A DNA stretch of 64,000 bases, from the NCBI GenBank assembly GCA_001244265.2, contig CDLV01000004.1, positions 2,542,001 through 2,606,000 on the forward strand. The letters run 5' to 3'. The notes under the pieces are model-generated. The model was not told the DNA's origin and ran no database searches. It saw only the letters and a program-made list of their open reading frames with translations. This DNA comes from Microbotryum violaceum (Eukaryota). Position numbers and translations under genes: made by a program. This document shows, piece by piece, positions 1-42,415 of the stretch. Positions within the stretch are counted from its first letter, which is position 1. Each line of letters starts with the position of its first letter.

Positions 1-618
1 CAGAGACACAAGGCCAGCCTTGCACTCCTGAATTGATGCCCAGAGCTCTTCGAATGCCATTTCGGTGATCGCGCGATCGGGTGATCGGTTCCAAAGAATG
101 CGACGTGTATCGGCGGCGGCGAACCCTGGGAGTCTTTGATCGACTAGGTAAAGAAAGACACGATTAGGAAAAAAGATATTTCTCGGCAAGAGAGCTTCCA
201 GATCGAAAGGGAGAAGAGGAGACGTAGCTCGACAAGTCGGCGTTCCGAGCGAGAGACGATCAAAAAACGATAAACGATCGCAAATGTCTTACAGGAACAG
301 CCCAATAAGTAGCCTCTGAGTAGTTCTAGTTACGACTTGCTTTTAGCCTATCGTTCAAGAACGACGTATTGTATTTTATGCACATCAAAGGCGCATACCT
401 TACAGCAAATGCAGACACTATTAGGAGGTAACGCGCTCCAAACGCAAACAGCGCGACTGTTCACCGCGCCGCGCAGCTGGGCCGGCTATGCCTTGCGGCC
501 CTGCGCCTCCCGCTACCCTGGTCTGCGCTTCAAAGTTCGACCGGAGGGAGGAAAATGTCCAAAAGTGAGGTGAGCCTCGACCCCTTTTGAGCCAAAAATG
601 TCCTAATTTGCGGGCCGT

Positions 619-643
619 CTCTGGCTGGGCTTTCGGGGGTCCT
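619..643. mobile_element. Right-end TIR of a second member of the P-like transposon family (element body presumably upstream or outside the window)
   Basis: ctctggctgggctttcgggggtcct is identical to the last 25 bp of the right TIR at 20547-20571. Preceded by aaaatgtcc motifs (reverse complement of the gacatttt subterminal motif). Confidence 0.7.
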
Positions 644-4874: not shown

Positions 4875-6499
4875 AGGAAAGGATCATAGCCCGGAGCATG
4901 AAATGAAGATAGGCGGCTGAGGTCCATCGCACGGCTAGACAGCTTGAATGGTGTCGACCGCACGGCTAGTGAACACAGCGAGAGTCTGCACGCTGCATGC
5001 TGATCTACATGCTAGGTTGACGTAATGCTACCCTGGCAAGTCACCGAAGGTTTCCCCTCCCTGTACCCAAATGAGCTCGGCGATCCCAAAGCCAGCGCGC
5101 CGTTGCACGATCAGCAACCGGCGGCCTGCTCGCTCGCGCGCTGACGTCGTCGATCTCTCTCTAGGGCGAGGACGCGTTCTTCCGTTTGACGAGGACGCGA
5201 CTTAAAATCTCCCCTTTGTTTAAGCTCGACGCCCCTCCCAAAGGGAGGGGCTTGTGAGTTATCGGCGCGCCGCTTGGCCCGTGCCCTCCGAAATTTTGGC
5301 CCTGAGAAGTGCCCCCTTGCTGTAGCATGGCATATATTGGTGCTACCTGAAAACTGGAGGGCTAAGTTTTTACATCATCATTATTGATGAGGCTTCACCG
5401 AAGCTTGAAGTCTAGGAACGCTTGATCATCTCGCTTGATCATCTCGCTACAGCAGCTTGAATCAACTGATTCCGAACGAGACGCAGGTCGGCGCACGGAC
5501 CAGTCGTAGTCCGGTCCGCATTGAAGGCTGCATAGATCCAGGTCACTTAAGCCCGGCCGCGCCTCACGCATCCTCTCTCTCCTCCACTCACTATCGCACC
5601 TCCCCTCATGATGAGCCATGTCGGTACAAACACCCAGGCCGGTTAGGAGACCGCCCTGTCGACATCCATCAATTGAGTTCAGGGCGTCTCCCTTGCGATC
5701 AGCTTCCAGGGCCAGTCCTACGACCCCAGCACCGAATCATTCAACCAATCCGACAACCGACCTTCCTGCTCGCCGGCCCGTTTTCGGTCACTGGAGGCCA
5801 CGTTTGACTCACGAGGACCGACGAGATTCCAGCGAATGACGCAAGAAGGTCAAAGTTATTCTGGGCGAAAGTCCTGACGACTCGGAGGACGTACCCTCGG
5901 CCCGTGCAGATCGAAGCCATTGCTGTACTTTTCAAACTCGACCAATTTGGGAAGAGGGATCGATATGACGACGAGTCGGATTGGGGAATTGGGAGGAGAT
6001 GCTGGAGATTACTCGCGGTAAAGATGCTTGATGTGCAGAGTAGGCTCGAAGGTTGTAAGCGCCGGCAATATCTCCGCTCTAAATGGGGGCGTAACCAAAA
6101 GTTCCATGAAGGAGCTCGGTTCGTCGATACAATTGCTGATCGTTGACGTGATTTGTGACGTCAGCGTTGTCAACGGTCACATGGAAGTACTTGTTTGAGC
6201 CAATCTCCTTCAATTCGCCTTCGTCAAGCTCGCAGCTGCCTGGAGAGCCCAGCGAGATGTCAGTCGTCAAGCCGCAATCGTACAGAAATGCTGTCAATCG
6301 GTCGTTCGCTCTACATGCGACAGTCATGAGACCGCTGCGATGCTGCATGGCGTTGTTCCTTCGGTTGCAAGCGAATGCGATCTGACCCATGACAGTCCAG
6401 GGCTTCGCATTAGATCAGATAGATGCTTATCTATATCTACACCTCCTATAACTATCGTTCATCTATAGCCGCAGAAGATCTTGTCGCCACTGTCTTCAG

Positions 6500-7267
6500 C
6501 ACGGAGGCGGAAGCAAAGTGTTCTACACCGAGCTTCGGTCTGCTGGCCCCGAAGACCGATTGCAAGCGAGGTGCGCCGACGTTGCTCGGGCCTTCCTTTT
6601 CTCCCGGATCTCGGGAAAGTGGGATCATTCCGATGTCGTCGTGTTTCGATCGAATGGTAAATTGAAGATCCGAGCAACGTGCAAGACTCGTCCAACCTCT
6701 CATTGCGAAACCGTTGACTTCGAGACCGCACACCAACACGGCGTAGCGAACTGGAACAGGGGCATCAAACAATGCCTGGTATCCAGGGGGGAAGGGGCGA
6801 ACACGATTAGTTCGCTTGAAATAATGTTTGCAGACTGTTACAGCAGGTCACTAAAGATTGTTCTGTCTTGTACTTTCAGAACGTGCAACCATTGCTTTCT
6901 GCTGCAATCTTCGACAATGCGTTGTTCATGTTATCCATCGTTCTTCACGTGCAATCTCGAAGGAAGCGTTCACCCACGTAGACCCCCAACTTCAAACCTG
7001 CCGAGCCTGCCCCTCTCACGTCGCCAATGTGAATGCTATCCTCGGTAGTCACGACACCGTCAAGAGGCTACTCCTTCATCTACATAGAGAACTGTTGGTT
7101 CAATTCGGCGAATTTCTTGTCAAGCGAAATCGCGGGATTCATCTGGTTATCGATGGTTGGACCGCTCCCAACTGCATCAGTGTTCTCGGAGTCGTCGTAG
7201 TGTATGAACAAGATGGCGTCGTTCATCGTCACATCCTCAAGTTCATCGAGTCGAAAGGTCGTGTTGT
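6500..7267 (+). pseudogene. hAT-superfamily transposase remnant
   Basis: IHLVIDGWTAPNCISVLGVVV is the hAT first-catalytic-Asp D-x-W-T motif. The frame is broken and truncated at about 7267. Confidence 0.65.
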
Positions 7268-8149
7268 CTAGGTGGTAGGCCATCGGTAACGAGGCGCGGT
7301 GCGCGCCCAGAGGGATCGATTGGTTTTAAGGCAATCAGGCATGAAACCCCGTAACAAACGGAATGGGTTGAAAGAAAGTACCCACAAGACGAGAGACCCA
7401 GAGATCAGAAGAGAGATAACAAAAGAAAGAAAAGATACCAACAAGGATTGATTTTATTTTTATTTTTAGGGTGGGTGGGAGGAGCTCAAAAATAGGACAC
7501 TTTGCTTGGAAAGCGTGGATCCTATTAGTACTCAGAAATACTGCAAAGACTGGGAGGCTTGGCATACCTTTGCTTGGAAAGCGTGACACACTTGAAAGAA
7601 GGAAACCGACCCTGAACGCTGGCACGTTGGGTGGCAAGTGTAGTCTGTAGCGCAAGGTAGCCAAGTAAGCCAACATGCCCAACAAGGACAGTTGTGAGCA
7701 GGAGTACCAAAAGGTAGAGCCTGATGTGGGGGAGTGATGTACCTTAGCTCCGGGAGCGTGACTCGGTACTCAGCAGAAGAAGGTGCGGCTACACTGGCAG
7801 GCGTAGGGCAGAACGGCTGCATACAGGGTATGAACAGTCAGTCAACAATCCAACAAGGAAGGTTGAGAAGAAGAGGTGTACGCAGTGGGCAGCTGTCTGT
7901 CGTAGTCTGGCAGGGCAGAAGACTGGGAGGCAGTTGCGTGTTCGTATCGCTGGGGAGGTCCTGTGAGATGCTCGAAACCTGTCAGCCAGAGGGCGTGAGA
8001 GCAGGAAGAGATCTAGGACGGCAACCAACCTTGGCAGAAGGTGGCAAAGGTACGCAGCGAATACTGGTACGGCAACAGCAGGCAGTGCGGAACTGACCCA
8101 GTGCGGCGGGAGCGTGCTTGAGGAAATTCCTGCGCGGGTGCGGCTTACG

Positions 8150-8180
8150 AGGACCCCCGAAAGCCCAGCCGGAGGCGCAT
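8150..8180 (+). repeat. Left TIR aggacccccgaaagcccagccggaggcgcat
   Basis: Reverse complement of 20541-20571 with one mismatch. Confidence 0.92.
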
Positions 8181-8339
8181 TTTTTTTTTTGACATTTTGA
8201 GGACCCAAAATCCTGAAAATCGTCGAGGCGCATTGCAAAAAATTGACATTTTGGGACGAAACACACGTTTCGCCCCCGAGGCGCATGCCCAGATTTTGAC
8301 ATTTTCCCGTGAGTCGGCCCAATCTTGGCCTACCCTGAG

Positions 8340-8580
8340 CACCCTACGGGAAATCCGCGCAACCGCAGTTGACCGCGGTTGGTGGAACAGACGTCGCCCA
8401 TCCAGCCATTCGAAAGTAACCGCGGTTCAACTTCAGGCCTAGAAAGTGGAATGCAGAGGTGCGCTTTTACCGCAGTTGCCAACCGCAGTAGCAAATGGCA
8501 ACCGCGGTCGCAACCGCACTAACCGCAGTTGTAGTAGACCAAGTGATTGCGGTTACGAACTTTAGTGACCGCGGTTGTAA
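8340..8580. repeat. Cluster of AACCGC(A/G)G(TT) motifs after CACCCTACGGGAAA; possible CACTA/EnSpm-like subterminal region
   Basis: About ten accgcag/accgcgg motifs in both orientations within 240 bp. The family call is inference. Confidence 0.45.
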
Positions 8581-10326
8581 TAATGTAGTAGCCTATACTA
8601 TCCCTTTCTTCGCTCTCCTTTGCATGTACAGTAAAGATATAGTAAAGTGGCACTGCCAATTTCATTGCATGAAATCAAGCATACGACTCGAACCTTGAGC
8701 CTGAGCGCCTGAGGCCTGATGAGGCACTCGGCCTCAACTCGTGAAATCGCTAAATCGGACCGGCTCGAAGACTCGGGCCCAGCAAGGCCGACTCACCTTC
8801 CACCCTCGAATCTTGCCACTAAACCTGTCAATGACACACAAGGCTGATGATGAGTGTCGGGCTATATTCAGTGGATCACCTCAGACTCAGTCTGGTGGCT
8901 AACTCACTCGACTGATCAAACTCGAAGCGTCGATCGGACGCACGCCTGCTGTTGCGCGACGGATCAGAATCAGCCCGCTCATAGTGTAGGAGCGAACTGG
9001 AGACTTACCCTATAGTTCAACATCGGGTCCTGAAATATGCCTGTACACATCTTAAACATTTTCTCGTCGAGCCTGGATAACCGACTGACGTCGACTGACG
9101 ACTGACTGCTCACCTCGAAGCTCCCGTCCATAGCATCGACTCGAAGGCGAAGCAGTGTGGCCTGTGGCACTGTTCTCGATGTTAATGCAAGCATATTGGC
9201 ATCAGCGAGCGGACGATAGAGCAAAGCTTGCTCACACTTCTCTCGAAGTCAAAGAATGGCCACCTGTGGGCTTCCTGAACAGAAACAAGTGCAGTCGACT
9301 CGGACCGCCGAGCAAGGCTAGGTCATAGTGCAGAACGATTGATTGATGTGGTTAGTACACGGGTCGGACACGTGACACCAAAAGCACGGGCCATGTTGAG
9401 TGACCGGGTAGCATCGAGATTGTAAGTCATCTAAACTTAGTCACTGACTTGATCGGCACCAAGTCAGTGAGTCGAATGCTGCAGTCGAATGCTGCAGTCG
9501 AACGCTGCAAGTTGGCGATGCCAAAGGCGCTTCAGTTAAGTTGGCGGTGACCATGATGTCGGCATGTGTGGAGCAGGAGGGAGAGAGGCGGCGCGCGCTT
9601 CGTGCGCGCTTCAAGCAGTGAATGTCGATTTGGAATTGGAAATCTAATCGGCAAAAATATGGTCAGTTTTCCTGACTTTTGCAAGCAGGTTGGACGTATG
9701 AGGAGCAGCGCAGTGAACGAACGAAGATGCCAAGTAATAGGATTGGAAACTTTCATGATGCATTACATTAACCTATGAGGAGCAGCGCAGTGAGCAAACA
9801 AAGATGCCGAATAGGAAAGGATTGGGAACGTTAAGGAAAGAGAGAGAGAGAGAGAGCTGCGCCAGTCGCAGCTCGGATATTCTAAGTCCAAGTTCAAAGA
9901 GGTCCGAGCGCGCCCAAGTTCCCATCCGCCAATCTCCGCATGCTGGAGTTGAGAGCGCTCCTGCAATGTAGTGTACACGATGACAGGACGAATAGGGACA
10001 TCAGGCCAGCGGAATATATTTCGACTCATACTCTCTTTCTTCAGATGTGTGGTGACAACATGTATAGGCTAATAAATCATGTCCAACCGGACGAAAAGAG
10101 TGCAACTTTCCATAGCAAAGCCACGTCGACTTGGGCTGCTGACAGGCAAACATGCTGAACGAGGTTCATGAGAAACGAGCACGGCGTGGGATAGAAAGCT
10201 ACATCTGAATACATGTTGACACACAACATTTTGGTCAGAAGGTTGACGCTCATTCGGCCTTCCAAGAAAGGATCAGTCTGCTTTGCCGACGAAGGCCTTG
10301 CAGGCATCGATTTGAGCCGCCAGCTC

Positions 10327-12124
10327 CTACGCAAGGACCAATTGACCACAAGCATGCTGGTTAGTTTCCTTGTTGGGAAGAGATGAAGCTGTAACAGCGG
10401 AATAGGGGTGACTGACGGGGAATAGTTCTTTCGCCGCCGCCTTGCGATTCTTCGCGGTGGGCGTTTGAGGGGGGTCAAAGGAGGCCGCAATGCCCTTCAA
10501 CGTGGCGAAGTCCAAACGCGAAAGCTCTTGCACGGCTAGATCGAGTACAGGCTCGATGTACGGTCAGTTCTCTTGAGGTGCCAATGTGATCCCGGCAACG
10601 ATTTTCTTACTGTAATGTGTGACCGAACTGGCCGCCTCCTTGCCTCCCTTTCGCGCCGGGCGGCGAGTGACCCTCGACACGCTCATTGGCATTCTCGCAA
10701 TAATCGGTTCACGACGGGTTTGATGCTCGGACCGCGACACATTTTGCTTATTAGCGTCCCGCGGGAGCGAACGAGAACAGCGTGTCTTGAAGTGGAGCTT
10801 ACATTGGACGCGATCACAACGTGCTGAGATCGATTCGAGTCCCGCCTCCGAGTGGGGAGAAGGTGACCCTATTTCAGAACCAGTGTGGTTCGGAGATTCG
10901 CAATCGACCACTTGAGACGTGGTGGCGTCCGACCCCATGATGCTTGGCGCCTTGTCGTGGTTGCGAGTCATGGTGCCATCACCTATGGCCTCGAGGCTTT
11001 TGGCGCTCGCAGAATCACTCGCAGTGACGTTGTCGCTCAAGCCTTTGCGACGTTTGGTGGCGCGGGTGGAGGAAGTTCTCGCCACATTCGCAATTTTGGT
11101 CGCAAGAAGCTGCTTGACAACGAGCGAAGTAGGCGGCCACATCTGCAGAGCCGGGTACCTCGATTCGATGATATCAACAGCTAATCGGACCCTGTTCTCG
11201 TTCTGCGAGCCGAACGCAATGCCGGCCTCGAAGATACTGGAGGTTGCGAGTTCGGCGATGGTAGTAGTTACGGCGGGCCATGTAAGCGTGACGGCTCCGT
11301 TGCTGCGCTGCTCAATTTTGGCCATGGCCACGTGTCCCGCCTCGATCTTGACTTCACGCAGCGCCGTCGCATTGATGTTGACCTCGGGGTCGTCCTTGCC
11401 GTCGTCCAGCTTCATCAAGTGCAGGTGGTCCTTGATGGCTTCCTGTCGTACATACCCTTGCAGCTCGTTTTGGAGCTTGAGGCAGGTGGGGTCGGTGGAG
11501 AGGTGCTCGGCGTGGTTATCGTTGTTTGAAAGCTGCGTCGTGTCGAGCACACGCTTGCGACGACTAGCTCCCGAAATCAATGACTTGATATCTGCAATTC
11601 AAAAGGTCGTTTTGAAGAGGCTCAAAAAACGATTCAGTGAGTGTTGCAAGAGGTTTGCGAGGGGTTTGCGAGATGAGAGTCCACCGTGCTAGCTCCGGCA
11701 GACACACCGGGTTCAATCTTGGGGACGAGCTGGTACACTTACCATGCTCTACCTTGACGCGCTCGCGGTTTTCTAGATACTCATTCCTTCCTCTGATGCT
11801 TTCGTTTGCGGTCTCGAGCGCAGCAACTCGTGCTTGAAGAACGTCACGCTGCGCGCAGGCAAGATCGCGCTCGGACTCGAGTTGCTGTAGTACCAAGGCT
11901 CGCTCGGCTTTCTCAGCACGACCACGCCAGTCGATGGTCTCGGAGTTGCTGGACGACATTGGTGGAAGTGATTTGAGAGTGCTGTTCACGCGTGACCTGA
12001 CGCAGAGGTGCAAACGAGGCGGCGTGGCGAGTTGCGTGGCGGAGCGAGAGGAGAGGGGCGAGTTCGGAAGCGAACGTCGAACGCCCCTAGCTGGTGTGGC
12101 GGATATGTAGTCGAGCCGCGACAA
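10327..12124 (-). CDS. Hypothetical TE-borne gene (coiled-coil N-terminus; ORFs 11564-12124, 10564-11580 and 10327-10533 are probably exons)
   Basis: Consecutive long minus-strand ORFs (186 and 338 aa) inside the TIR element. No family recognised. Confidence 0.45.
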
Positions 12125-12285
12125 CGCTGCCGAACTCGCCGCGCACCCCCACGCCGGAACATCACTGGGGGTGACGAGCGCCTTCAGCGGTGGCTACTGG
12201 GTACTTTTCCGCCCCCTCTTTCTCTCCCTACGGTTGTGAGGCCATATCCCCACTTCCAAGGCGTCAGTCACACACTGGTTTTGTC

Positions 12286-13095
12286 ATGTCTCACAGCAGA
12301 GTCGAACCAGACCTAGTTGCGCAGTGGAAACAGCAGATCGAGCAATCACAAATCAACTGCATCCAGAAGAAGCTCGCAGACACACGTCCGTTGAGCGGTC
12401 TTGTCGAACTGCCCGAGCATGACAAAGCACACTACAATGAATGGAGGTACTGCGTCTGCTCAGCGTGCCGGTCTAAGTCTGGAGCCTGGCTTACAAGAAG
12501 AACCTGGGCAACGCATCTCAAAAAGGACGTTAAACAGCGACGGCCAGGCGGAGGCGCGAAAGAACTAGCCAAGTGCTGGAAGCGAAAGGGGGCTACACCA
12601 GGTCCGTCAACGAATTCACTCATCTTGGCCAATCTCTATTCTGACCTTCGGGGACGTCTTTTGCCGGCAGCAGTCGGTCACGCGATCCCAATGGCGGTCG
12701 ATGACGATTACGCCGATGATATGAATCGAGAACTCGGCGGAGAGGCGGACGAAAATGGCGACGAAGACGATCTCCGAGGAAACCACAATGAAGCCGCAGA
12801 TGAAGAGGGAGAAAAGATGGTCGTAGACGAAGAGGAGATGCGCGGTCCGAAGGAGCTCGACGATCTGGGACTCGAATTGGGCTCGGAAGCGCAGGAGGAA
12901 CATGATAGTGACAGAGATACCAGCGATACGGACTCCCATGCGGGTGGAGCGCAAAGCGATGAGAACTTTCTGAGAGGCGCAAGAGAGGAAGAGGATGTCC
13001 AAGGGGAGGCAGAAGAGCCCGAGCCCACTGAAGATGAGATTGCCGCGCTTGAGGCTCATCTCGCCGAGCTTGGTGCCGAAGGTGACTCAAAGTTT
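12286..13095 (+). pseudogene. Truncated protein with CxCxxC..H zinc motif and acidic tract; resembles N-terminus of fungal CACTA-type transposases
   Basis: YCVCSACRSKSGAWLTRRTWATHLKK followed by a D/E-rich region, cut by the Copia LTR at about 13096. Confidence 0.45.
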
Positions 13096-15955
13096 TGCTG
13101 TGCTTCAAGTGGTCGTATTTATCGCAGAAACGATGAGAGCGCGGAAGTAAAGCCTTCCGATAGGTGAGGGTGCACGACACCGAGAAGTCAGGACCACAAT
13201 GTAGAGCGAGTGATAATAAGTATTCCATAACTAACCTTCCGATAGGTGAGGGTGCACGACACCGAGAAGTCAGGACCACAATGTAGAGCGAGTGATAATA
13301 AGTATTCCATAACTAACCTTCCGATAGGTGAGGGTGCACGACACCGAGAAGTCAGGACCACAATGTAGAACGAGTGATAATAAGTATTCCATAACTAACC
13401 TTCCGATAGGTGAGGGTGCACGACACCGAGAAGTCAGGACCACAATGTAGAGCGAGTGATGAGAAAGCTACCAAGAGTAAACAGCCGCGCGGAAGAAAAG
13501 CCCCGCGCGCTCCCTAACTTAAACAGATCAAACTCCAATACCAAAGTGACTAATGACTAAACGCACGCGCATCCGCGCAGATACCACAGGCACAGACACA
13601 TATCAAACGACACTCCCACATGCCAAGGTAGCCAGCGAGACCATCCCGAGTCCTTCGCGATGCGTAGAGAACTTGAGCTTGGATAGGGGTTTTGTCAAGA
13701 TGTCGGCCGTGTTCAGATCGGTCGGACAGTAGCGGAGGTCGATATCGCCAACCTCGATTCGTTCGCGTAAATAGAAATGATGTACATTCCAATGGCGAGT
13801 ACGACCTCGAGCTCCAGGATTCTTCGCCAAATCGATGCAAGGTTGGTTGTCCTCGTGCAGAACAGTAGATCGACCTTGATTGATGCGAAGTTCGGACGCC
13901 AGGTTGCGAAGACCGATAGCCTCCTTGGCTGCGGTTGAAGCAGCCAGAGTCTCAGACTCTGCTGTAGAAGAAGCAACCATCGTCTGTTGTTTCGACTTCC
14001 AGGAAATAGCAGCGCCAGCCATGATAACGACATACGCTCCCACAGATCTGCCCTTGTTGTGATCGCAACCAAACGACGCGTCACTGTACACCTCGAACTT
14101 GGTAGAACCGCCTACGCGGTAGAGTAGCCCATAGTCGACGGTGTCAGAAAGATAGCGAAAGATTCGCTTGACGCAGATCCAGTCTCCTTCGGTTGGAGCA
14201 GCCACGCACTTCGCCACCGCACGAACGGAAGTCGCGATATCGGGACGAACACGTTGCGCAGCGTATTGTAAAGCTCCCACAGCCGATTGATATACAAGGA
14301 TGTCGGAGAACGGTGCGGTAGAAGACGAGATGACGCGATCCTCCATGGGAGTCGCGACCGGCTTCTTCGACTTGTTTTCGAAAGTATAGTGTTCGAGTAA
14401 GCCTCGAATGTACTTCGATTGGTGGACGAAGATGAAATCCTTGGTTCGAACAAACTCGAGACCGAGGAACGTCTTGACCGGGCCAAGTCGCTTGAGCTTG
14501 TAGACTTCATCGAAAGCCGAAATCTTGGAGTCCAGAAAAGCCTGGTCGTTCGATGCAGCAAGCCCATCATCAACATATAATGTGATGATCGCAAACGACT
14601 TGCCATGATACTTGAAATACAGACAAGCATCGACATTTGAGCGCGTATAGCCGCGATCCGTCATCAGCTTGTGGAGAGCCGCGTTCCATTGCCGAGGAGC
14701 TTGCTTGGTGCCATACATGGATTTCAGGAGCTTGAGAGCGTGACCGGGCCGAGAACCACCAGTCCATCCCTCAGGAACCTTCATGTAGATATCCTCTTCC
14801 ATGATCCCGTTGAGAAACGCAGAATCATAGTCGAACTGTTCGAGGACGAGTCCGAGAGCGGCAGAAATCGCGATGAGAAACAAGATCGTCGTGATCGACG
14901 AGACAGGAGCAAACGTCTCGTTGTAGTCAATTCCAAGTCGTTGAACAAAGCCTTGGATGACGAGACGAGCCTTGTAGCTGATGATGTTGCCTTCAGCGTC
15001 TTCCTTCCGAGTGAACACCCAACGATAGCCCAGGGCGCGAGCCCCGGTGGGTAGCCTCGTAAGCTTGAAGACCTTGTGCAACTTGAATGAGCCCAACTCC
15101 TTCTCAGAAGCGGCCATCCAGTGTTTGGCCTCAGAAGAGGCCATCGCTTCCGCAAACGTCTTGGGAAGCGGGGTGTGACGAGACGAAACCATAGCAATGA
15201 GCTCTGGTGGATGACGGTAGACCGAGCGAGTAGACACGACACGAAGGGCGTCTGCACGACGCTGAGCACGCAGGCGAGTCGGTAAAATATTGCCGGCATC
15301 GACGTTCTCGAGCGCACCGGGGTTGCCGCCGACACGGTAAGGTCGATACTCGTAACCATCCTCAGGAGGTAATGGTTGATCGTGTTCCGCAGGGCCGTCG
15401 TAATCGTCACTGTCGATAGCCTCAACTGCTTCCTCGCGTCGATGATCGATCGGGTCCTCTTCAACTTCGGCGTCTTCGGCCAACGGGCCGACAGCCGGTA
15501 AAGGAGGAGGAGCAACGTCGTCATCGTCCATATCTTGGAAACGAAGAAGAGGAGCGGGAGCTGGCCGAAAAGCCGGACCAAGCTCGGGTACGAGCGCAGG
15601 CCGTAAAGCCGGAACTTCTGCCTCGGGAAAGAGCGCAGGCCGTAAAGCCGGAACTTCTGCCTCAGGTACGAGCGCAGGCCGTAAAGCCGGAATCTGCTCC
15701 AAGCCAGGAAACGGCAGTTGATGTACTAACTCGTGTTCCTGTATAGGTTCAACTTCGTAGATGCGAGGCTCGACAGCCGAGTCCGCGATCGAAGGAGCCT
15801 TGTCGGAGAAGGTGACATCGGAAGAGACAACGATCTTGAAAGACCGACCGTGTTCGACGCGAACCTTGTAGTTGTACTCCCCGAATAGCCGAGGAAAGTA
15901 CCCTTGACAGTATGGTCATCGAGCTTGTTGTGGATTTGGACTTGGAGTACCAATG
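13096..15955 (-). mobile_element. 5'-truncated Ty1/Copia (integrase C-terminal remnant, RT, RNase H, 3' LTR about 13096-13612)
   Basis: ORF 13603-15702 has [34 protein letters not shown] and ADILTKPL. A purine tract precedes the TGTCG LTR start at 13612 (minus). The distal LTR end is approximate. Confidence 0.88.
13153..13460. repeat. 82-bp tandem repeat (~3.7 copies) within the Copia LTR
   Basis: The unit ccttccgataggtgagggtgc... starts at 13153, 13235, 13317 and 13399. Confidence 0.93.
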
Positions 15956-16665
15956 AATGAATGAAGATTCGCTGTAGCTACACGGCGTTGATAGATGACC
16001 TATTGTGAGATAGAGTATCGCCAAGGTCAATCAACTTGTAGCAGGCGAATGGGCGAGATAGATATTGAGTGTGTGTTTAAATGTATTACAACTAACCTAT
16101 TGTGAGATAGAGTATCGCCAAGGTCAATCAACTTGTAGCAGGCGAATGGGCGAGATAGATATCAAGTGTGTGTTAAAGAAGAAGGAGAGAGTGAACGAGA
16201 CCAGAGCCTTAGATAGTATCCGCGTGCAAGCCACCTCTGAGTCCAATCAATACGCCACACCGCCATCTGCCTCCATCCGGCGCCGCGCCACGCGCGCGCC
16301 AACTTCCCAATGCCACAAGTCCCTCTGGACCGCTGACCCTTTACTAACTTCCCACAACACTCCCACTGGTCAAGGCTCCAAGGGATACCATCCCCAATCC
16401 ATCACGATGAAGTTCGAACAAGTTGCGAGCGAGCGGCTTGGTGAGAAGATCCGCAGTCATGGCTCCTGTCTTGCAATACTTGATTCGAATGTCGCCAGTC
16501 GTAACTCGCTCGCGAATGTAGAAGTGATGCACACTGTAGTGCTTCGTCCTACCATGATGAGCCGGGTTCTGTGCGATCGCGATCACCGCCTGATTGTCCT
16601 CCCAGAGAAGTGTAGATCCAGGCTGTTGAATCTTGAGATCCGCAGCCAGGCGTCGAAGCCACATG
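15956..16665 (-). mobile_element. Second Copia fragment (RNase H C-terminus plus LTR with internal ~97-bp duplication)
   Basis: ORF 16344-16664 has [26 protein letters not shown]. An LTR-like region follows, with acctattgtgagatagagtatcgcc duplicated. Confidence 0.8.
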
Positions 16666-16672
16666 GGGATTG

Positions 16673-19600
16673 GTGAAAGCGGCTACGGTCAAGCACGATC
16701 GGATGGTCAAGGGCAAATCAATGCGAGGCTTTGTGCGGTCCGAAGCGCTGCGTGACTTCGAGCAAGCCATGGCGCTGGCGTCTCCGATGGCTCTGAGAGT
16801 ACTGCAGGCTACAATCGGCGCATCCACAAGCTGAAAACTGCAGTGAGTACCGTCATTCTTTCGTTCTTCCAATTCAACCTCATACTGAAGGATCGAGGTG
16901 CTTGCAGAATGGACCGAGCGACATCAGGCAGGATGCGCCTCGGCCTCGACAAGTCCAACATGGATCGTGTCTGCGCCAAACTCGAAGCAGACGACTTAAC
17001 GTTCAATTTACACGTAGACGACACGAAGTGTCGATCCAGGATGCGAACCACTCCATACTACTCAGAAGACCTCATTTTAGAGCGCGGACTACGTACGAAG
17101 GGCATATTCCGCCACGAGCTGATCGGATCAATTGGTCCGCCACGCATCTACGAAACTCCGGGTGAACTCCCTGATATGTTCAGCGGACCTGACCCCCCGG
17201 TTGCTGGAACCAAAGTGAGTGACAGTGATTCTTTTAAGTTTGTACTTCATTTCCACGAGGCTTTAACATGCGTCGCCTCTTCATTCAGATCCGAGCTTAC
17301 ATGATAGCACCGAACGATGTTGGCTCCCCAGCACAGGTGTTTGCCGGTTTTGTGATCGGCGAAACTACGAACGCGGAGGACGCGACCGAACAGTTACATT
17401 CAGTGATACAAGAGATAATAAAACGTTGCGTCGCACACCTTCTGGTATCCATCTCCGCAGATGGTGCGGCAAGCGAGGGTGTGCTGCAACGTAATGTTGC
17501 CGTCCTTCTGCGCGATCAGGGTGGCGCTGTTGCTCAAACCGGATCAAGGAACGCGTCATCATACACCCTCCCCTCCCCAGATCCGGACGGAGTGTTTCCT
17601 GAGATCATTATATCGACCGTCAACGTCGCGGGAACGCCGATAGTCTTCTGTCGGGACGAAAAACACCTGGCCAAATGTCTGAGGAACGCTATCGACTCTG
17701 GAGCAAGATTGCTGTTCGGCGGTCTCGGATGCATTGCCTACCAGGATATGCTCACCATCCTGGGCGGACTGGAGTCGCGTCGTACTCTGTCTCGTCGTGA
17801 TGTGGTCGGGCGTGATCGTCAAGACGACAATGCAACACATCGGGCATTCTCCAAGGCGACGCTCGAACTCGTAACCGAACTCGCTGAAGACAAAAAACTC
17901 GACCCCGATGCGGTCGTATATCTCTTCCTATGTGGCGAGTTACACGATGCCATCCAGAACCGGTCGCTTCAGCCCCTTGAACGTATCAGGATGTTGCTCG
18001 TTGTCAGATATACGTTCAAGGCGTGGTATGACTTTGTCCGAAGTCGCCCCGGATCTAGCTCTCACTCGTTCCTCGCCAAAGAAACGCTTGATGGGGTCAG
18101 GAAGATGGTTGACTCAACGATTGCTCTCGTCCGCAACTACCGAGATTTTTGGCCGAAGGAATCGTTTATTCCCTGGCGGCATGGCACAGAATTGGTGGAG
18201 CACTTCTTCGGGGTATACGCCAGATTGTAAAGGAGTTCGATGCTCTAGAGTTCTTGCAGGTGCGTTCTTCATGAATCAATCTAATCTATACAGTAGTGAA
18301 CCCGGCTAGAACCCGACAGGCAACTGGCAAAGTCACTGCACTCTTGGAGCTCATGAGGAAGTTTAAGACCGAGGCGGCGGGATCACGTCAAGGCTACCAT
18401 CATACCTACAACGACCTCGACGATCTTGACCTTGTTGCGATGCGAACGTACCCCAGTGATGGCGACATCTCTCTCACCAGTTTTGCAGCGGCAAATACTG
18501 CGCGTGAACTGCTTTCAGGTTTACGCATGCGGGAGCCTGTGCAACGCATCGCGTCCAACAGACGCAACCAAGGTCCGCAACCTGACATACTCGTCGAGGA
18601 CGTACTTGCCCGTGGCACAACAATTCAAGGTAAGGGGTTGCGAACGATTTGGTCTATAAGTGATGCGTATCTGACACGGGATACCATGCCCACTTGAAGT
18701 AGATCTTGAAGACCATCATCCTACCAAGGAAGATCAAGGTCTGCTCCGCACCGAATTGCTGGATTCTGCTCTTGATGGCATGCGGCGTAGCACGTGCCAA
18801 GGTGTTGTGAAACTGGACCCAAACGAGCGGGAAGCTGTCGACCGTGCGATTCGATCGCTTGCAGCTCTGGACTTTGACGTTGAGGCAGCCTTGTGAGTGG
18901 ACACTTCTCTGTGCCACGTGCGCTGAAGCGTTCTTCTACCTTTTAATCCGGACTCATATGGTTCTCCTTTCTCATTGGCCAGACTCGACGTGCAAATCGC
19001 TTACGACGAAGCTGTCAGACAATCTGAGGAACGCTACGTACTCGAGACCATTGAGAAGGCAAACAGCTCATTACGTCCAATCGTGCGTCTACCAAGCTTG
19101 ACTAGCGTAATTTCGATCTGAACTCATGCATCTTCGGTACTATAGAGCCTACACACTTGAAACTTCCGCCTCTTGTTGATGCTTGCGATACCAGTTTCTC
19201 GCTGAACTGGGCCAGCTTGATTGCCCATCGAGCTGCTCATGAGTGTAGCCACCTCAGAGCTGTTCTACTCAAAGGGAGGCCAATGGAATTGAGCGACACA
19301 AGTCGCGGAGAGGCAGGCTTAGAGATTAGCAATACAGAGCAAGGACCCAGTGCAGTACATTCACGCGTCTTGAAAGGGTTGGTGCAGTCCATGGGACCAT
19401 CTCGCTTCGAAGACATTGCGGGCACCGCAAGGAGCTTTCGCTGGACTGGAGGTGGCCAGGTGGCCCGAGCACTCACAACAAACGAGATTCAGAAGAACGC
19501 CTATATTGAGGACGGCCACATTCAAGTGAGTTGTTGCTGAATTTAGGAACGAAGGCAGCTGGATCTAATGTTTTGCCGGTCCTATACTTTTAGGAAAAGC

Positions 19601-20304
19601 TCCCTGAGAGAGACAAGCAGTACGGAGCGCTAGCACAACGCTATCCTCATTTTGGATCGCTTGACGGAGCTGTAACCGCTGCCACACCATTTGATATTGG
19701 ATCTCTGATCTGCTTTGGCCTCAAGTGTGGCATGCATTCACTCAGCTGCGATCAAACTGTTTATGGAGAAGAAGCGCTGTCTATCGGAATTCGTACGCGC
19801 GTTGTTTTGAGTGGCAGTTGAGGAAGTTCTCGTTTGACACAAGTATTGTGTCCTACAGTGCGACACATCTACAGCAAAGTGACAACAAACCACTGCAACC
19901 AAGACACGTTTGCCTCGTTGGTTCTACTCTCAAATGTCGTCGTACAGGAGCTTCGCCTCATCAAGAAAACATGCTATTCCACACACCTCATTGATGGCAC
20001 TATGCCGTTCCGCATGATTGATGGTCAACAGGCCATCGAGTCATTAGGCCCATCAACGACTACATATCGTTCAACCACGGACCTTACCTCATGTTACCCG
20101 GACGAGCGCCTAATCAGCACGAGCGCACATGCCGAGCAAAGGTTTGCCGCCCTTCGGAGCGTGCCCGGCCTGCGAGATGCCGCCGGCAGAACCTCTACAA
20201 GTCGCACAAATGCCACCGCGGAAACAAGGAGCTCAACTTCAGCAAAAAGGAAGTCTGACAACGAAGCAGCGAGCCAGCCAGCAAAGCAAGGAAGGCTTGT
20301 TTGA
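16673..20304 (+). pseudogene. P-element/THAP9-like DDE transposase, intron-containing, 5'-truncated
   Basis: LHVDDTK (D1), SISADGA (D2), RDEKHLAKCLRN (P-type DxxH..K..RN), RDRQDD and HGTELVEHFFG (E). Long C-terminal exons run to 20304. In-frame TGA near 16832. Confidence 0.75.
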
Positions 20305-20540
20305 AGCGTGGAGCCACGCGCAACACCAGCCGAAGCGACGCACGCCGCAAGCCACTTTCGATAGGCCGCCGCGCGCCCGCAAATGCTCGGAACGCGTTTT
20401 CGAGGACTTTTGAGCGATTTTTGGAGCATGTAGAACACAATTTAAAAATATTTCCGAGGCGCATGCGAAATTTTGACATTTTGGGGCCAAAATAGGGTAA
20501 AAAACTTTGACAAAAAGGCAAAAAAAGGGCGTTTTTCCGC

Positions 20541-20571
20541 ATGCGCCTCTGGCTGGGCTTTCGGGGGTCCT
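20541..20571 (-). repeat. Right TIR of the P-like element
   Basis: atgcgcctctggctgggctttcgggggtcct immediately followed by the TSD ggcttacg. Confidence 0.92.
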
Positions 20572-20580
20572 GGCTTACGG

Positions 20581-25411
<4,831 letters not shown>

Positions 25412-39950: not shown

Positions 39951-41024
39951 AATTGATTATGTACAAAAAGAATGAGTTGTATTTAATTTGTTATAAAGAA
40001 AGGCCTTTATATATGATTTTCAAAAATGAAACAGAAAATACAAGTTTTAAGAGCTAAAACAATACTTTGAATATTAATAAAAGTATCATTCATCTCTTCT
40101 CTTTTTTTACGTAAAAAAGTAAAAGATAAAATCACAGATCATGAGTCAGTTATTTTATAGCTAATTACTTCGCAGCCTAATAAGCTTAAATAAGATAAAG
40201 CTCAAGTTTTACAGTAAAGATCTCTTTTTTTAACTACTCCTTTATTTTCTAGAAGCGCCCCTTTTTATTAATTAAAAAAAAGCGGGGCTGCGAGTTTTTA
40301 CGTAAAAAAGGGCTGTTTTTATTTTATTTAATTTGCTTCCCGTACGTTTGGTGAACGGTAGCGGTGAAAAGACCTTTAGTTAATAGAACTAATGAAGGTG
40401 TACCTTGCTTTGTGTACTCAATACTTAAGTCAGCTAATCGCCCCTTTGCAAAGGGGCGCGAGATCATTTAGATAAGTTGAATACTTATTAATCTTTATTA
40501 CCGAATTTAATCAGTCTCATCTTTCGAATCAGTCGTTACAGGGGGAATATTGTTTCTTAATAAGTGTAGATGTGGCATCATTAAGTGTTTTAACTGCATC
40601 TTCAAATTTCTCCGGAGATAATTTTGAAAGACCCATTAAAACAGCTTGTAGATTGTAAATTAAATAGCTATTTACACTACTTTTGTGAAGATTATACTAA
40701 ACTTAGTCACATTAACAAATAACAAACTAACACTTAAAACAGATCAGTATCAGAAGAAAGACCTAGTGGGCTTTTATTTAAGAAAAAATGCATAATCATT
40801 TCTTAGAGGAAATTGAATCTATTGTAACTCCAGTGGATGGCTATATCCACTTGGGTAAAAATAAAATGATCGAGATTCCTCAGAACTAATCACAAATCAT
40901 CAAAGTACAATGCAACGTACATTTGTTCGGTCTTTTTTCACCTGTTCATGACTAGATCACTCCCTTTCGGGTCTAATATTACATACTTAACCCATAATAT
41001 ATATAGTTGCTTTCGCTGAGGATA

Positions 41025-41375
41025 TAAACCTTGCATGTAATATTAAGTTGCTGACCCATTATGCAAAAGGTACAATATTACCAATTAAGGCTCTATCTGC
41101 TTATAAGATTGCTAATTCAGGCTCTGTTTCACCAGTCATCGACTTGCTTTTAACCTTTCCCTCACGGTACTCTTCACTATCGCTAAACATATCATACTTA
41201 GCCTTGGAGGATGGTACCCCCATATTCAGACAGACTTACTTCCGTCTTACTCACTAATATCATCTCACCTTTGTTTTTGGCCCTCTAGAAGAAGGAGAAA
41301 AATCACCAGTAAAATAATAGTTAGCTAGTTGTAATAAAAATGCTTGTTCACAGGACTATAACCTTCTATGGTATC
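41025..41375 (-). rRNA. rnl: Mitochondrial large-subunit rRNA fragment (within NUMT, non-functional)
   Basis: Antisense LSU signatures acctttccctcacggtac, tgacccattatgcaaaaggtac and ttagccttggaggatggt. Confidence 0.85.
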
Positions 41376-42415
41376 TGATATTATCAGTTGTCTTCATCTA
41401 TTTCCTTCCGATTGGGCCTTCGATCAATTTCAGATAAACCCGTCAGTCTCTCTTCTGGACTGAGCTTAATCGGCATGCGTCTATAAACCCATTTTATTTT
41501 TTTGTTCCCATCTAAAAAGCGATGGGAAACTGTAGGGGTCCTAACCCCATAGATAAAAATACTAAAAAAAACTGGAATAAGCGCACGACGGCGACGAAAT
41601 AAAGGAATAGGTAAAAAGCTCGCTCGATTAATCAAGCGCCACCATCGATTAGACCAGCTAATCATTGACAAAATGAAGTTGGAAAATGCGTTGCACGTGT
41701 AGTCTCTGAGGTTCCTACCTTGTACGATTAAGATTCCGGTCCGCCCCACACTAAATATCCGATCTCAGGACACCTGTTCTAACGACGCGTGAATACGGAG
41801 TGATTTAGTTAGTGTTTGTTTGAAGGTATAAAAAATTCCCCATTATTTATTAGAAAATGTAGTGAGATTGGTCAATAAATAAGTCGACTATTTTAAATCG
41901 AATATAACCTTTTTATAAATGATTTTACTATTAACTGTCTTAAGCAATTCAGAACCTACAAATGTTGTTTTACATAACGCGGTAACTGGAGAACTTATTA
42001 GAACTATGAGTTTGAAAGCTAAAAAAGTTCCTTTAAAGGAAGTGTTGTTATTCATCGACCAATCTCACTACATTTTCTAATAAATAATGATTAGTAAAAG
42101 TTATTATATTGACAATTTCAAAAGTGGTAAAGAGTTAATTGTAGATATGATTACAGATATCTCAAACATTGTTAAATGTTTAGATGCTAACGGTGGATCC
42201 TAAAAGATTGTATGAATGGAATGGTACAGGACTCTCAAGTGTTCACTCTAATGAATGCGCATATTGTGGTCCACTTAAGAATTCGATAACGTAGCCTCTT
42301 TAGCTTTTTACTCCTTTATTTTCGAAAATAAAGGCCAAAAGAAAAAAAAAGGGAGGAGCTAAGCTAGATATAATAAGGATGAACAAAAGTGAAGTTGAGT
42401 TGTATAAAATAGGAT

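What the first reader, a model, noticed from the sequence alone, without database searches (positions are those of the whole stretch)
8142..20579. 12.4-kb fungal P-element-like transposon with 31-bp TIRs and a perfect 8-bp TSD
Seen: 30/31-identical TIRs, a GGCTTACG duplication on both sides, and an internal spliced protein with D (VDDTK), D (SADGA), DEKHLAKCLRN and ELVEHFFG. Known: 8-bp TSDs, 31-bp TIRs and the DxxH..K..RN and E.FF motifs characterise the Drosophila P element/THAP9 group, which is poorly documented in fungi. Inference: this locus ties a 'hypothetical' basidiomycete protein family to real mobile ends (AGGACC...GGTCCT, not the P-type CA...TG) and may define an under-described P-like family. 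The unusually long C-terminal extension (18300-20304) is unexplained.
Basis: partly seen in the sequence, partly recalled or inferred. Interest (0 to 1): 0.85.

Follow-up and report, generated by a model that had tools for sequence, protein, structure and literature searches.

The report
Defective fungal P-type DNA transposon copy
This is a broken copy of a cut-and-paste DNA transposon from an anther-smut fungus, and its enzyme belongs to a widespread but barely described mushroom-and-smut branch of the fruit-fly P-element family that also carries a SUMO-protease-like domain.

Summary

The P-element reading also holds. An AlphaFold model of a 61%-identical Microbotryum paralogue matches the Drosophila P transposase far better than any other solved fold (Foldseek E 1e-12; VIA Z 27.2 against 12.9 for the next). 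Three relatives pass Pfam's cut-off for the P-type HTH domain.

Eight complete elements of relatives, in metagenome contigs, measure 5.6-7.7 kb. They share the termini AGG[A/C]CCCC and perfect 8-bp duplications. Each holds one roughly 1600-1900-aa gene: Ulp1-like protease, Cys-rich region, P-type HTH, RNase H core with insertion domain, and a conserved C-terminal region.

The window copy is not intact. It lacks the N-terminal ~740 residues, has a 1-bp frameshift just after the catalytic E, and carries about 8.4 kb of unrelated repeat fragments, two of them Copia pieces. It is therefore non-autonomous.

P elements with 8-bp duplications are already catalogued in rust fungi. What may be new is the protease-fused, THAP-less, basidiomycete-wide lineage. 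I could not compare it with Repbase or Dfam. Interest is moderate.

The parts
8142..8149 (.). left target-site duplication GGCTTACG
8150..8180 (+). left terminal inverted repeat, 31 bp, starting AGGACCCCCGA
   Evidence: The terminus AGG[A/C]CCCC is shared by 32 of 32 ends tabulated.
8172..8306 (+). three direct subterminal repeats, GAGGCGCAT followed 8-10 bp later by TTGACATTTTG, about 53 bp apart; the first overlaps the TIR
   Evidence: M. silenes-dioicae gene models P0154, P0155 and P0162 begin in 8155-8274, so this stretch is shared with full-length copies.
8275..16648 (.). about 8.4 kb of DNA not matched by any family protein, a mosaic of other repeats: a cluster of AACCGCRGTTG motifs at 8360-8577; unexplained ORFs at 10564-12193 (-); the 5' piece of another Microbotryum repeat gene at 12175-13167 (+); an 82-bp tandem array at 13153-13460
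   Evidence: tblastn of 165 session proteins found nothing in this stretch. Other evidence. Contigs of relatives show breakpoints at 9912/12543, 13196/14879, 16343 and 16666.
13603..15915 (-). Copia-type reverse transcriptase/RNase H fragment; no LTR pair was found
   Evidence: PF07727 at E 4.4e-59. The direct-repeat search shows no LTRs.
16344..16682 (-). second, different Copia pol C-terminal fragment, abutting the transposase breakpoint
   Evidence: 75% identical over 56 nt to the end of the first fragment (D4). ORF translation.
16649..20410 (+). transposase remnant in several exons: P-type HTH region (16649-16843), catalytic D (17014-17028), D (17454-17468), D(2)H...K..RN (17655-17687), E (18189-18212), then the conserved C-terminal region
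   Evidence: tblastn. Motif coordinates. Family alignment. Fold of a 61%-identical paralogue.
18206..18214 (+). 1-bp deletion in a G-run that shifts the frame from 3 to 2 directly after ELVEHFFG; the conserved continuation IRQIVKEFDALEFLQ is in frame 2
   Evidence: Contigs of X1, X9 and X15 have one more G behind 18209 (table 4).
20456..20483 (+). one more copy of the subterminal motif (GAGGCGCATG N7 TTGACATTTTG) near the right end, in the same orientation as the left copies
20541..20571 (-). right terminal inverted repeat
20572..20579 (.). right target-site duplication GGCTTACG

Best explanation
The interval 8150-20571 is one insertion of a cut-and-paste DNA transposon of the P superfamily, in a Microbotryum (anther-smut) genome.

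The family's full-length elements in the metagenome relatives are about 5.6-7.7 kb. Each carries a single intron-containing gene for a roughly 1600-1900-aa protein. Its parts, in order, are an Ulp1/SENP-like cysteine protease, a Cys/His-rich region, a P-type helix-turn-helix, an RNase H-like DDE core split by a P-type insertion domain, and a conserved C-terminal region.

By homology with the Drosophila P transposase (inferred), the enzyme binds the AGGACCCC termini and the subterminal repeats. It then excises the element and joins it into target DNA cut with an 8-bp stagger, which gives the 8-bp duplication.

The window copy keeps both ends. It has lost the first ~740 codons, has at least one frameshift, and holds about 8.4 kb of fragments of other repeats. 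It cannot make transposase and could move only if a full-length copy supplied the enzyme.

Shown here: the ends, the TSD, the family's architecture, the fold relationship and the defects. Inferred: the catalysis, the DNA-binding roles, the role of the protease, and whether the foreign DNA entered before or after this insertion.
For: Ends and TSD.

Family size and hosts: 520 cluster representatives at E<=1e-3. Of 30 looked up, 27 carry an organism name, and all 27 are Basidiomycota.

Architecture: the alignment of 55 sequences keeps D138/D139, D261, D326-x2-H329-x2-K332-x2-R335-N336 and E504/E507 in P0001 numbering. A profile of it hits yeast Ulp1 (1EUV) at 3.3e-17.

Fold: the AF2 model of P0001 has mean pLDDT 74.3, and its core is mostly above 80.
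- Foldseek gives 6pe2_A at 1.1e-12 and 6p5a_A at 2.6e-12. The next hits are RAG1 at 1.3e-4, Hermes at 2.1e-3 and Transib at 6.5e-3.
- VIA-align gives 6p5a_A Z 27.2, rmsd 3.9 A, 397 residues aligned, model 36-538 on chain 135-565. The next hits are Transib 12.9, Tn5 11.4, RAG1 11.2 and Hermes 9.6.

Pfam:
- PF12017 (P-type HTH) was found in 9 of 151 proteins, two above the cut-off (P0054 at 25.9 bits, P0135 at 27.6 bits; cut-off 23). It was also found in 1 of 97 locus ORFs, at 25.6 bits.
- PF21787 was sub-threshold in 5 of 151.

ESM Atlas: P/THAP9 clusters score 0.90-0.97 for two members, with predicted-structure TM 0.78-0.81.

Mobility of the family: in the 80 metagenome loci, 7 of 15 testable AGG[AC]CCC...GGG[GT]CCT pairs have 8/8 TSDs. 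L015 adds an eighth. No pair with other termini had a TSD longer than 3 bp. Each of the eight complete elements checked holds one + strand gene spanning protease to C-terminus.

Defects of the window copy.
Against: No window ORF hits any Pfam transposase model, even at E<=10.

The catalytic Pfam models of the P family (PF21787) reach at most 16.9 bits against a 24.6-bit cut-off. A family profile does not find the P transposase chains in the PDB by sequence at E<=10.

No THAP domain was seen in any scan.

The fold test was done on a paralogue that is 61% identical over the core. It was not done on the broken window protein.

8 of the 15 testable relative pairs lack a TSD: 7 full-size elements and a 15-bp second pair in L020 (0-4 of 8 matches).

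No other copy from the same genome could be examined, because no genome is held. No empty site was shown.
Confidence: 0.85

Rival explanations
1. The family is not a member of the P superfamily. It is a separate, sister-level superfamily that shares only an ancient common fold with P/THAP9.
For: The catalytic core is below every Pfam P threshold. Identity to the fly transposase in the structural alignment is 14%. There is no THAP domain, the N-terminal modules differ (Ulp1 and a Cys-rich region), and the termini differ.
Against: The HTH, both RNase H halves and the insertion domain align as one unit to 6p5a (397 of 442 residues, Z 27.2), more than twice the Z of any other transposase. The P-specific HTH model passes its cut-off in three members. 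The TSD is 8 bp, as in P.
Confidence: 0.1
2. It is a hAT-superfamily element. hAT elements also have 8-bp TSDs, short TIRs and a [C/D]xxH motif.
For: 8-bp TSD. D(2)H motif. Hermes appears among the fold matches.
Against: Hermes scores Z 9.6 and E 2e-3, against Z 27.2 and E 1e-12 for the P transposase. No hAT Pfam family was hit in 151 proteins or 97 ORFs. Among named clusters, the Atlas neighbours that carry a transposase family are all P/THAP9.
Confidence: 0.02
3. It is a KDZ/Zisupton element. That is the abundant basidiomycete superfamily, and it also makes 8-bp TSDs.
For: 8-bp TSDs for Zisupton are stated in PMC12730594 (passage read). KDZ abundance in Basidiomycota is given in PMC5751038 (passages read).
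Against: No KDZ Pfam family was hit in any scan. The fold and Atlas evidence point to P.
Confidence: 0.02
4. On the history of this copy: the 8.4 kb of foreign fragments were already inside the element when it inserted here (filler or captured DNA in a non-autonomous derivative mobilised in trans). They did not arrive by nested insertions and deletions afterwards.
For: The foreign pieces are fragments without their own ends or LTRs, which is not what clean nested insertions leave. The TIRs (30/31) and the TSD (8/8) are still nearly perfect. The ends are at far higher summed depth than the interior in contigs of relatives, which fits many short derivatives.
Against: No second copy with the same interior was seen. 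Summed contig depth is a poor measure of copy number (notes). The window is rich in other retroelements, so decay after insertion is equally plausible.
Confidence: 0.4

Closest known systems
Drosophila P element transposase / vertebrate THAP9 (P superfamily)
   Same: HTH, a split RNase H core and an insertion domain that superpose on 6p5a (Z 27.2, 397 residues). D, D, D(2)H and E signature (the signature is described in PMC8230255, passages read). 8-bp TSD. The TIR is 31 bp in this copy.
   Different: No THAP finger. There is an added N-terminal Ulp1-like protease and a Cys/His-rich region. The proteins are 1600-1900 aa. The termini are AGG[A/C]CCCC. The catalytic Pfam models are not reached. 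GTP dependence is unknown.
P elements of rust fungi in Repbase (P-1_PSt, P-1_MLP, P-2_MLP, P-N1_MLP, P-N2_MLP)
   Same: The host subphylum is Pucciniomycotina, the superfamily label is P, and the TSDs are 8 bp (PMC3164196, passage read).
   Different: Their sequences and domain content were not available to me. Whether they are the same lineage, or carry Ulp1, is open. None of the 27 named hosts of the family looked up here is a rust.
Ulp1-carrying transposons (Mutator elements with Ulp1, Ginger1)
   Same: A Ulp1/C48 protease domain is encoded by the transposon or fused to the transposase (PMC2836005, passages read).
   Different: The transposase superfamily is different. In Ginger1 the protease is C-terminal, whereas here it is N-terminal.
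hAT (Hermes) and KDZ/Zisupton
   Same: 8-bp TSDs and a DDE core with an insertion domain.
   Different: The fold match is much weaker (Hermes Z 9.6). No Pfam hits to either family were found.

Membership tests
P superfamily (P element/THAP9) | RNase H-like DDE core with conserved D, D, E | tested here: met
   D138/139, D261 and E504/E507 are invariant or nearly so in 55 sequences. In the window they lie at 17014-17028, 17454-17468 and 18189-18212. The fold matches 6p5a/6pe2.
P superfamily (P element/THAP9) | [C/D](2)H motif after the second D, opening an insertion domain of about 190 aa | tested here: met
   D326-x2-H329 is conserved, and it lies 178 residues before E504. In the fly the spacing is D339 to E531, with the insertion domain at 339-528 (PMC8230255). 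The structural alignment spans chain 135-565.
P superfamily (P element/THAP9) | P-type HTH domain (Pfam PF12017) N-terminal to the core | tested here: met
   Above the 23-bit cut-off in P0054 (25.9), P0135 (27.6) and L007:534-2174 (25.6). Sub-threshold in 7 more of 151. The window ORFs themselves give no hit.
P superfamily (P element/THAP9) | catalytic Pfam models PF21787/PF21788/PF21789 at gathering score | tested here: not met
   PF21787 is sub-threshold only: 5 of 151, best 16.9 bits against 24.6. PF21788 and PF21789 never appear.
P superfamily (P element/THAP9) | N-terminal THAP zinc finger (typical of the superfamily, not universal; recalled) | tested here: not met
   No THAP hit in any Pfam scan of 151 proteins and 97 ORFs. 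The family has Ulp1 and a Cys/His-rich region instead.
P superfamily (P element/THAP9) | 8-bp (7-8) target-site duplication | tested here: met
   Window: 8/8. Relatives: 7 of 15 testable pairs are perfect, plus L015.
P superfamily (P element/THAP9) | GTP as cofactor bound by the insertion domain | not testable with these tools
   Only the fold of the insertion domain was compared.
Ulp1/SENP cysteine proteases (Peptidase C48) | C48 fold with catalytic His, Asp and Cys | tested here: met
   This holds for the family, not for the window copy. The profile hits 1EUV at 3.3e-17, with HW, D and Q.D..SC aligned. PF02902 is above its cut-off in many full-length members. The window copy lacks this part.
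hAT superfamily | hAT dimerisation domain, with Hermes as closest fold | tested here: not met
   No hAT Pfam hit was found. Hermes scores Z 9.6 against 27.2 for P.
KDZ/Zisupton | KDZ transposase domain | tested here: not met
   No KDZ Pfam hit in any scan.

The most novel reading that the evidence does not exclude
These elements are an old, basidiomycete-wide lineage of the P superfamily that has not been described as such.
- The THAP finger is replaced by an Ulp1-like protease plus a Cys/His-rich module of no recognised fold.
- The terminal octamer AGG[A/C]CCCC has stayed invariant across proteins only about 25% identical.
- Some copies look recently mobile.

If so, P-type transposons would be common in fungi rather than the rare 'single occurrences' reported by Pfam-based surveys. 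The lineage would also offer a natural fungal system to ask what a SUMO/ubiquitin-like protease does for a transposase.
Probability: 0.45. Interest if true: 0.6.

Novelty: new variant of a known kind. Interest (0 to 1): 0.5.

Why it matters
A census of 1,730 fungal genomes based on Pfam domains counted only 11 P elements with a transposase and called them single occurrences (PMC5751038, table passage read).

The family here has 520 cluster representatives and is almost invisible to those models. If it is accepted as P-type, the picture of P-element distribution in fungi changes.

The conserved termini and the 8-bp TSD give a simple rule for annotating these 'hypothetical proteins' as transposons.

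The fixed fusion with an Ulp1-like protease is a testable case of a transposase carrying a SUMO/ubiquitin-pathway enzyme.

For Microbotryum, published TE surveys lump such elements under 'TIR' (PMC10502011, passages read).

Tried and rejected
Source genome: none is held, so copies and TSDs could not be tabulated genome-wide. Relatives in metagenome contigs were used instead.

Sequence-only routes to the P family gave nothing decisive:
- phmmer of the 330-aa ORF against PDB found only chance hits.
- The family profile against PDB found only Ulp1/SENP.
- The word-indexed homologue searches reached only Microbotryum and a few agarics.

Empty site: contigs of four related organisms were laid on 6900-21800.
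- No joint from 8149 to 20580 was listed.
- One contig of X9 follows the left flank exactly to 8149 and then continues for 101 letters that do not fit the window. This is compatible with absence of the insertion there, but it does not show an empty site.
- A joint 8170->20544 in X1 has only 23 letters on one side and was set aside.
- Depth figures are sums over contigs and were not used as copy numbers.

Interior ORFs:
- 12175-13167 matches only two Microbotryum hypothetical proteins, which have no Pfam domain.
- 10564-11598 could not be looked up in the Atlas and remains unexplained.

Middle region: the Cys/His-rich region of a relative (L020:7379-8941) was folded (mean pLDDT 70.2, pTM 0.36). 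Foldseek found nothing at E<=0.001. VIA-align over 48,161 chains gave a best Z of 4.7, apart from the expected Ulp1 tail. No fold can be named. The domains were not folded singly.

Dada was considered and dropped. It has no TIRs, targets small RNA genes and carries a DnaQ-like exonuclease in Laccaria (PMC3706591, passages read).

Earlier findings of this scan: three look-ups returned nothing.

Literature:
- Searches for Ulp1 together with P-type transposases in fungi listed no paper on such a fusion.
- This covers only the held library.
- Repbase Reports and supplements were not available.
Full report
**Observation.** The inverted-repeat search finds one outstanding pair in 7500-21500: arms 8150-8180 and 20541-20571, 31 nt, one mismatch. 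The 31-mer has only these two matches in the 64-kb window with up to three mismatches, against none in 100 shuffles. GGCTTACG stands directly outside each arm.

**What the protein is related to.** The window ORFs hit no Pfam transposase family, even at E<=10.
- A full HMMER scan with the 330-aa ORF 17238-18230 found 520 cluster representatives at E<=1e-3. Many are 1500-2000 aa long, with the match near residue 1000-1300.
- Of 30 looked up, 27 carry an organism name, and all are Basidiomycota. The genera are Microbotryum, Phenoliferia, Naganishia and many Agaricomycetes. Nearly all are named 'hypothetical'.
- The closest relatives (96% over parts) are Microbotryum silenes-dioicae proteins, so the window comes from a Microbotryum genome.
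- Full-length members carry an N-terminal Peptidase_C48 (Ulp1) domain. A profile of 55 members hits yeast Ulp1 (1EUV) at 3.3e-17, with the His, Asp and Gln..Cys positions conserved.

**Is it P-type?** By sequence alone the link is thin but consistent.
- PF12017, the P-transposase HTH, appears in 9 of 151 proteins scanned, two above the curated cut-off, and in one of 97 ORFs from relatives' loci, also above it. It always lies just upstream of the core.
- PF21787 appears below threshold in 5 of 151.
- No hAT, MULE, KDZ or other transposase family was hit in any scan.
- The ESM Atlas puts two distant members (Microbotryum P0001 and Trametes P0024) next to P/THAP9 clusters, with scores 0.90-0.97. 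Its own model of P0001 aligns to P/THAP9 models at TM 0.78-0.81.

The decisive test was a fold comparison.
- An AlphaFold2 model of P0001 was built on the 55-sequence alignment. P0001 is 862 aa and 61% identical to the window ORF. The model has mean pLDDT 74.3, and its core is mostly above 80.
- Foldseek ranks the Drosophila P transposase first (6pe2_A 1.1e-12, 6p5a_A 2.6e-12), eight orders of magnitude ahead of RAG1, ISCth4, Hermes and Transib.
- VIA-align gives 6p5a_A Z 27.2, rmsd 3.9 A, with 397 of 442 residues aligned (model 36-538 on chain 135-565). That range covers the HTH, both RNase H halves and the insertion domain. The next best are Transib 12.9, Tn5 11.4, RAG1 11.2 and Hermes 9.6.
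- The spacing of D, D, D(2)H and E is comparable to that given for the fly enzyme and THAP9 (PMC8230255, passages read).
- I therefore place the family in, or immediately beside, the P superfamily. It lacks a THAP finger.

**Are the ends those of the family?** No genome is held for the window, so I fetched relatives from metagenome contigs. That gave 80 loci.
- Searching them for inverted repeats around the gene shows the same terminus again and again.
- With the pattern AGG[AC]CCC...GGG[GT]CCT, a TIR of at least 14 bp and a size of 1.5-16 kb, there are 16 pairs in 15 loci. Fifteen pairs have both flanks, and 7 of those have perfect 8/8 duplications. The remaining 8 match at 0-4 of 8 positions.
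- L015 has a 13-bp strict TIR and adds an eighth perfect TSD.
- No inverted-repeat pair with other termini had a duplication longer than 3 bp.
- All 32 ends tabulated, the window's included, begin AGG[A/C]CCCC, although the proteins are only about 25-33% identical to P0001.
- The eight complete elements are 5.6-7.7 kb. Each holds one + strand gene running from the protease to the C-terminal region. For example, residues 2-1651 of P0079 map to L020 6426-11658, inside the element 6017-12513.
- This ties the protein family to mobile ends and fixes the TSD length at 8 bp.

**Anatomy of the window copy.**
- Family proteins align only from 16649 onward. The match corresponds to residues 739-1506 of P0002, and to the end of P0152 at 20410, which is 130 bp before the right TIR. 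The 'long C-terminal extension' is thus a conserved part of the protein.
- Three M. silenes-dioicae gene models start inside 8155-8274, so the left ~125 bp are also family DNA.
- Between about 8275 and 16648 nothing matches the family. That stretch holds:
  - a cluster of AACCGCRGTTG motifs;
  - two unexplained minus-strand ORFs;
  - the 5' piece of another Microbotryum repeat gene;
  - an 82-bp tandem array;
  - a Copia RT/RNase H fragment at E 4e-59;
  - a second Copia C-terminal fragment.
- No LTRs were found for either Copia fragment.
- Contigs of related organisms break or jump at 9912/12543, 13196/14879, 16343 and 16666.
- Directly after ELVEHFFG the frame shifts. The conserved continuation IRQIVKEFDALEFLQ is in the next frame, and contigs of three related organisms carry one more G there. 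The stretch 18702-19100 has in-frame stops.
- The copy is therefore non-autonomous. Whether the foreign DNA was carried in or arrived later is open.

**Surroundings.**
- The window mixes host genes (UCH hydrolase, DUF747, CDC24) with Copia, Ty3-type and LINE-type fragments.
- A second, solitary right end of the same family lies at about 615-643.
- Three bases after the right TSD another element begins, with long and nearly perfect inverted ends (20583-25051).

**A rough tree.** A FastTree of the core (56 sequences, midpoint root, support values not shown) groups the window with the other Microbotryum sequences. That group sits next to Phenoliferia and Naganishia and apart from the agaric radiation. 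This fits old, mostly vertical presence but is not a test.

**What is known.**
- P elements were reported from rust fungi in 2011, with 8-bp TSDs and Repbase entries (PMC3164196, passage read).
- A 2017 census lists Repbase's fungal P references as 'only Pucciniales & Allomyces'. With Pfam models it found 11 copies with a transposase (PMC5751038, passages read).
- Ulp1 domains are described in Mutator and Ginger1 transposons (PMC2836005, passages read).
- My searches for Ulp1 together with P-type transposases in fungi listed nothing on such a fusion.
- Microbotryum TE papers speak only of 'TIR' elements in the passages I read. Their supplements were closed.
- UniRef already labels two members 'THAP9-like helix-turn-helix domain-containing protein'.
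- I could not compare with Repbase or Dfam.

**Verdict.** This is a real but defective copy of a P-type transposon. The family-level features may be a new variant of a known kind: the Ulp1 fusion, the missing THAP finger, the invariant AGG[A/C]CCCC termini and the basidiomycete-wide spread. Interest is moderate.

Noticed in passing
window 615-643 (- strand terminus; followed by AGCGCACC): A second, solitary right end of the same transposon family. 25 bases up to the terminus are identical to the right TIR at 20541-20571, while the subterminal DNA differs. Its body would lie left of the window start.
   Followed up: partly
window 20583-25051: Another TIR element starts 3 bp after the right TSD. 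Its long inverted ends (arms 20583-20774 and 24706-25051) are 98-100% complementary. No obvious TSD is visible. Parts of it recur at 55384-57811.
   Followed up: partly
window 17890-18213 against proteins P0002, P0152, P0160-P0162: The deposited M. silenes-dioicae gene models read this stretch in frame 1, while the family-conserved sequence (and relatives P0001 and P0010) is in frame 3. The models look mis-spliced or built on frameshifted copies.
   Followed up: partly
window 8360-8577: A dense cluster of the near-palindromic motif AACCGCRGTTG: 11 matches here of 12 in the window, against 2.5 expected. It lies just inside the left end. It is unknown whether it belongs to the transposon or to the foreign DNA.
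   Followed up: no
window 10564-12193 (- strand): Two adjoining ORFs of 344 and 209 aa, the second coiled-coil-like, with no Pfam hit. Contigs of three related organisms join 9912 directly to 12543 and so lack this 2.6-kb piece.
   Followed up: partly
loci L002, L009/L017, L048, L052, L064, L080: Full-size family elements with good AGGACCCC TIRs of 28-37 bp but no TSD (0-4 of 8 matches). Possible causes are recombination between copies, chimeric contigs or nested contexts.
   Followed up: no
window 40001-42000: GC content drops to 0.34 in a window that otherwise runs at 0.50-0.60.
   Followed up: no
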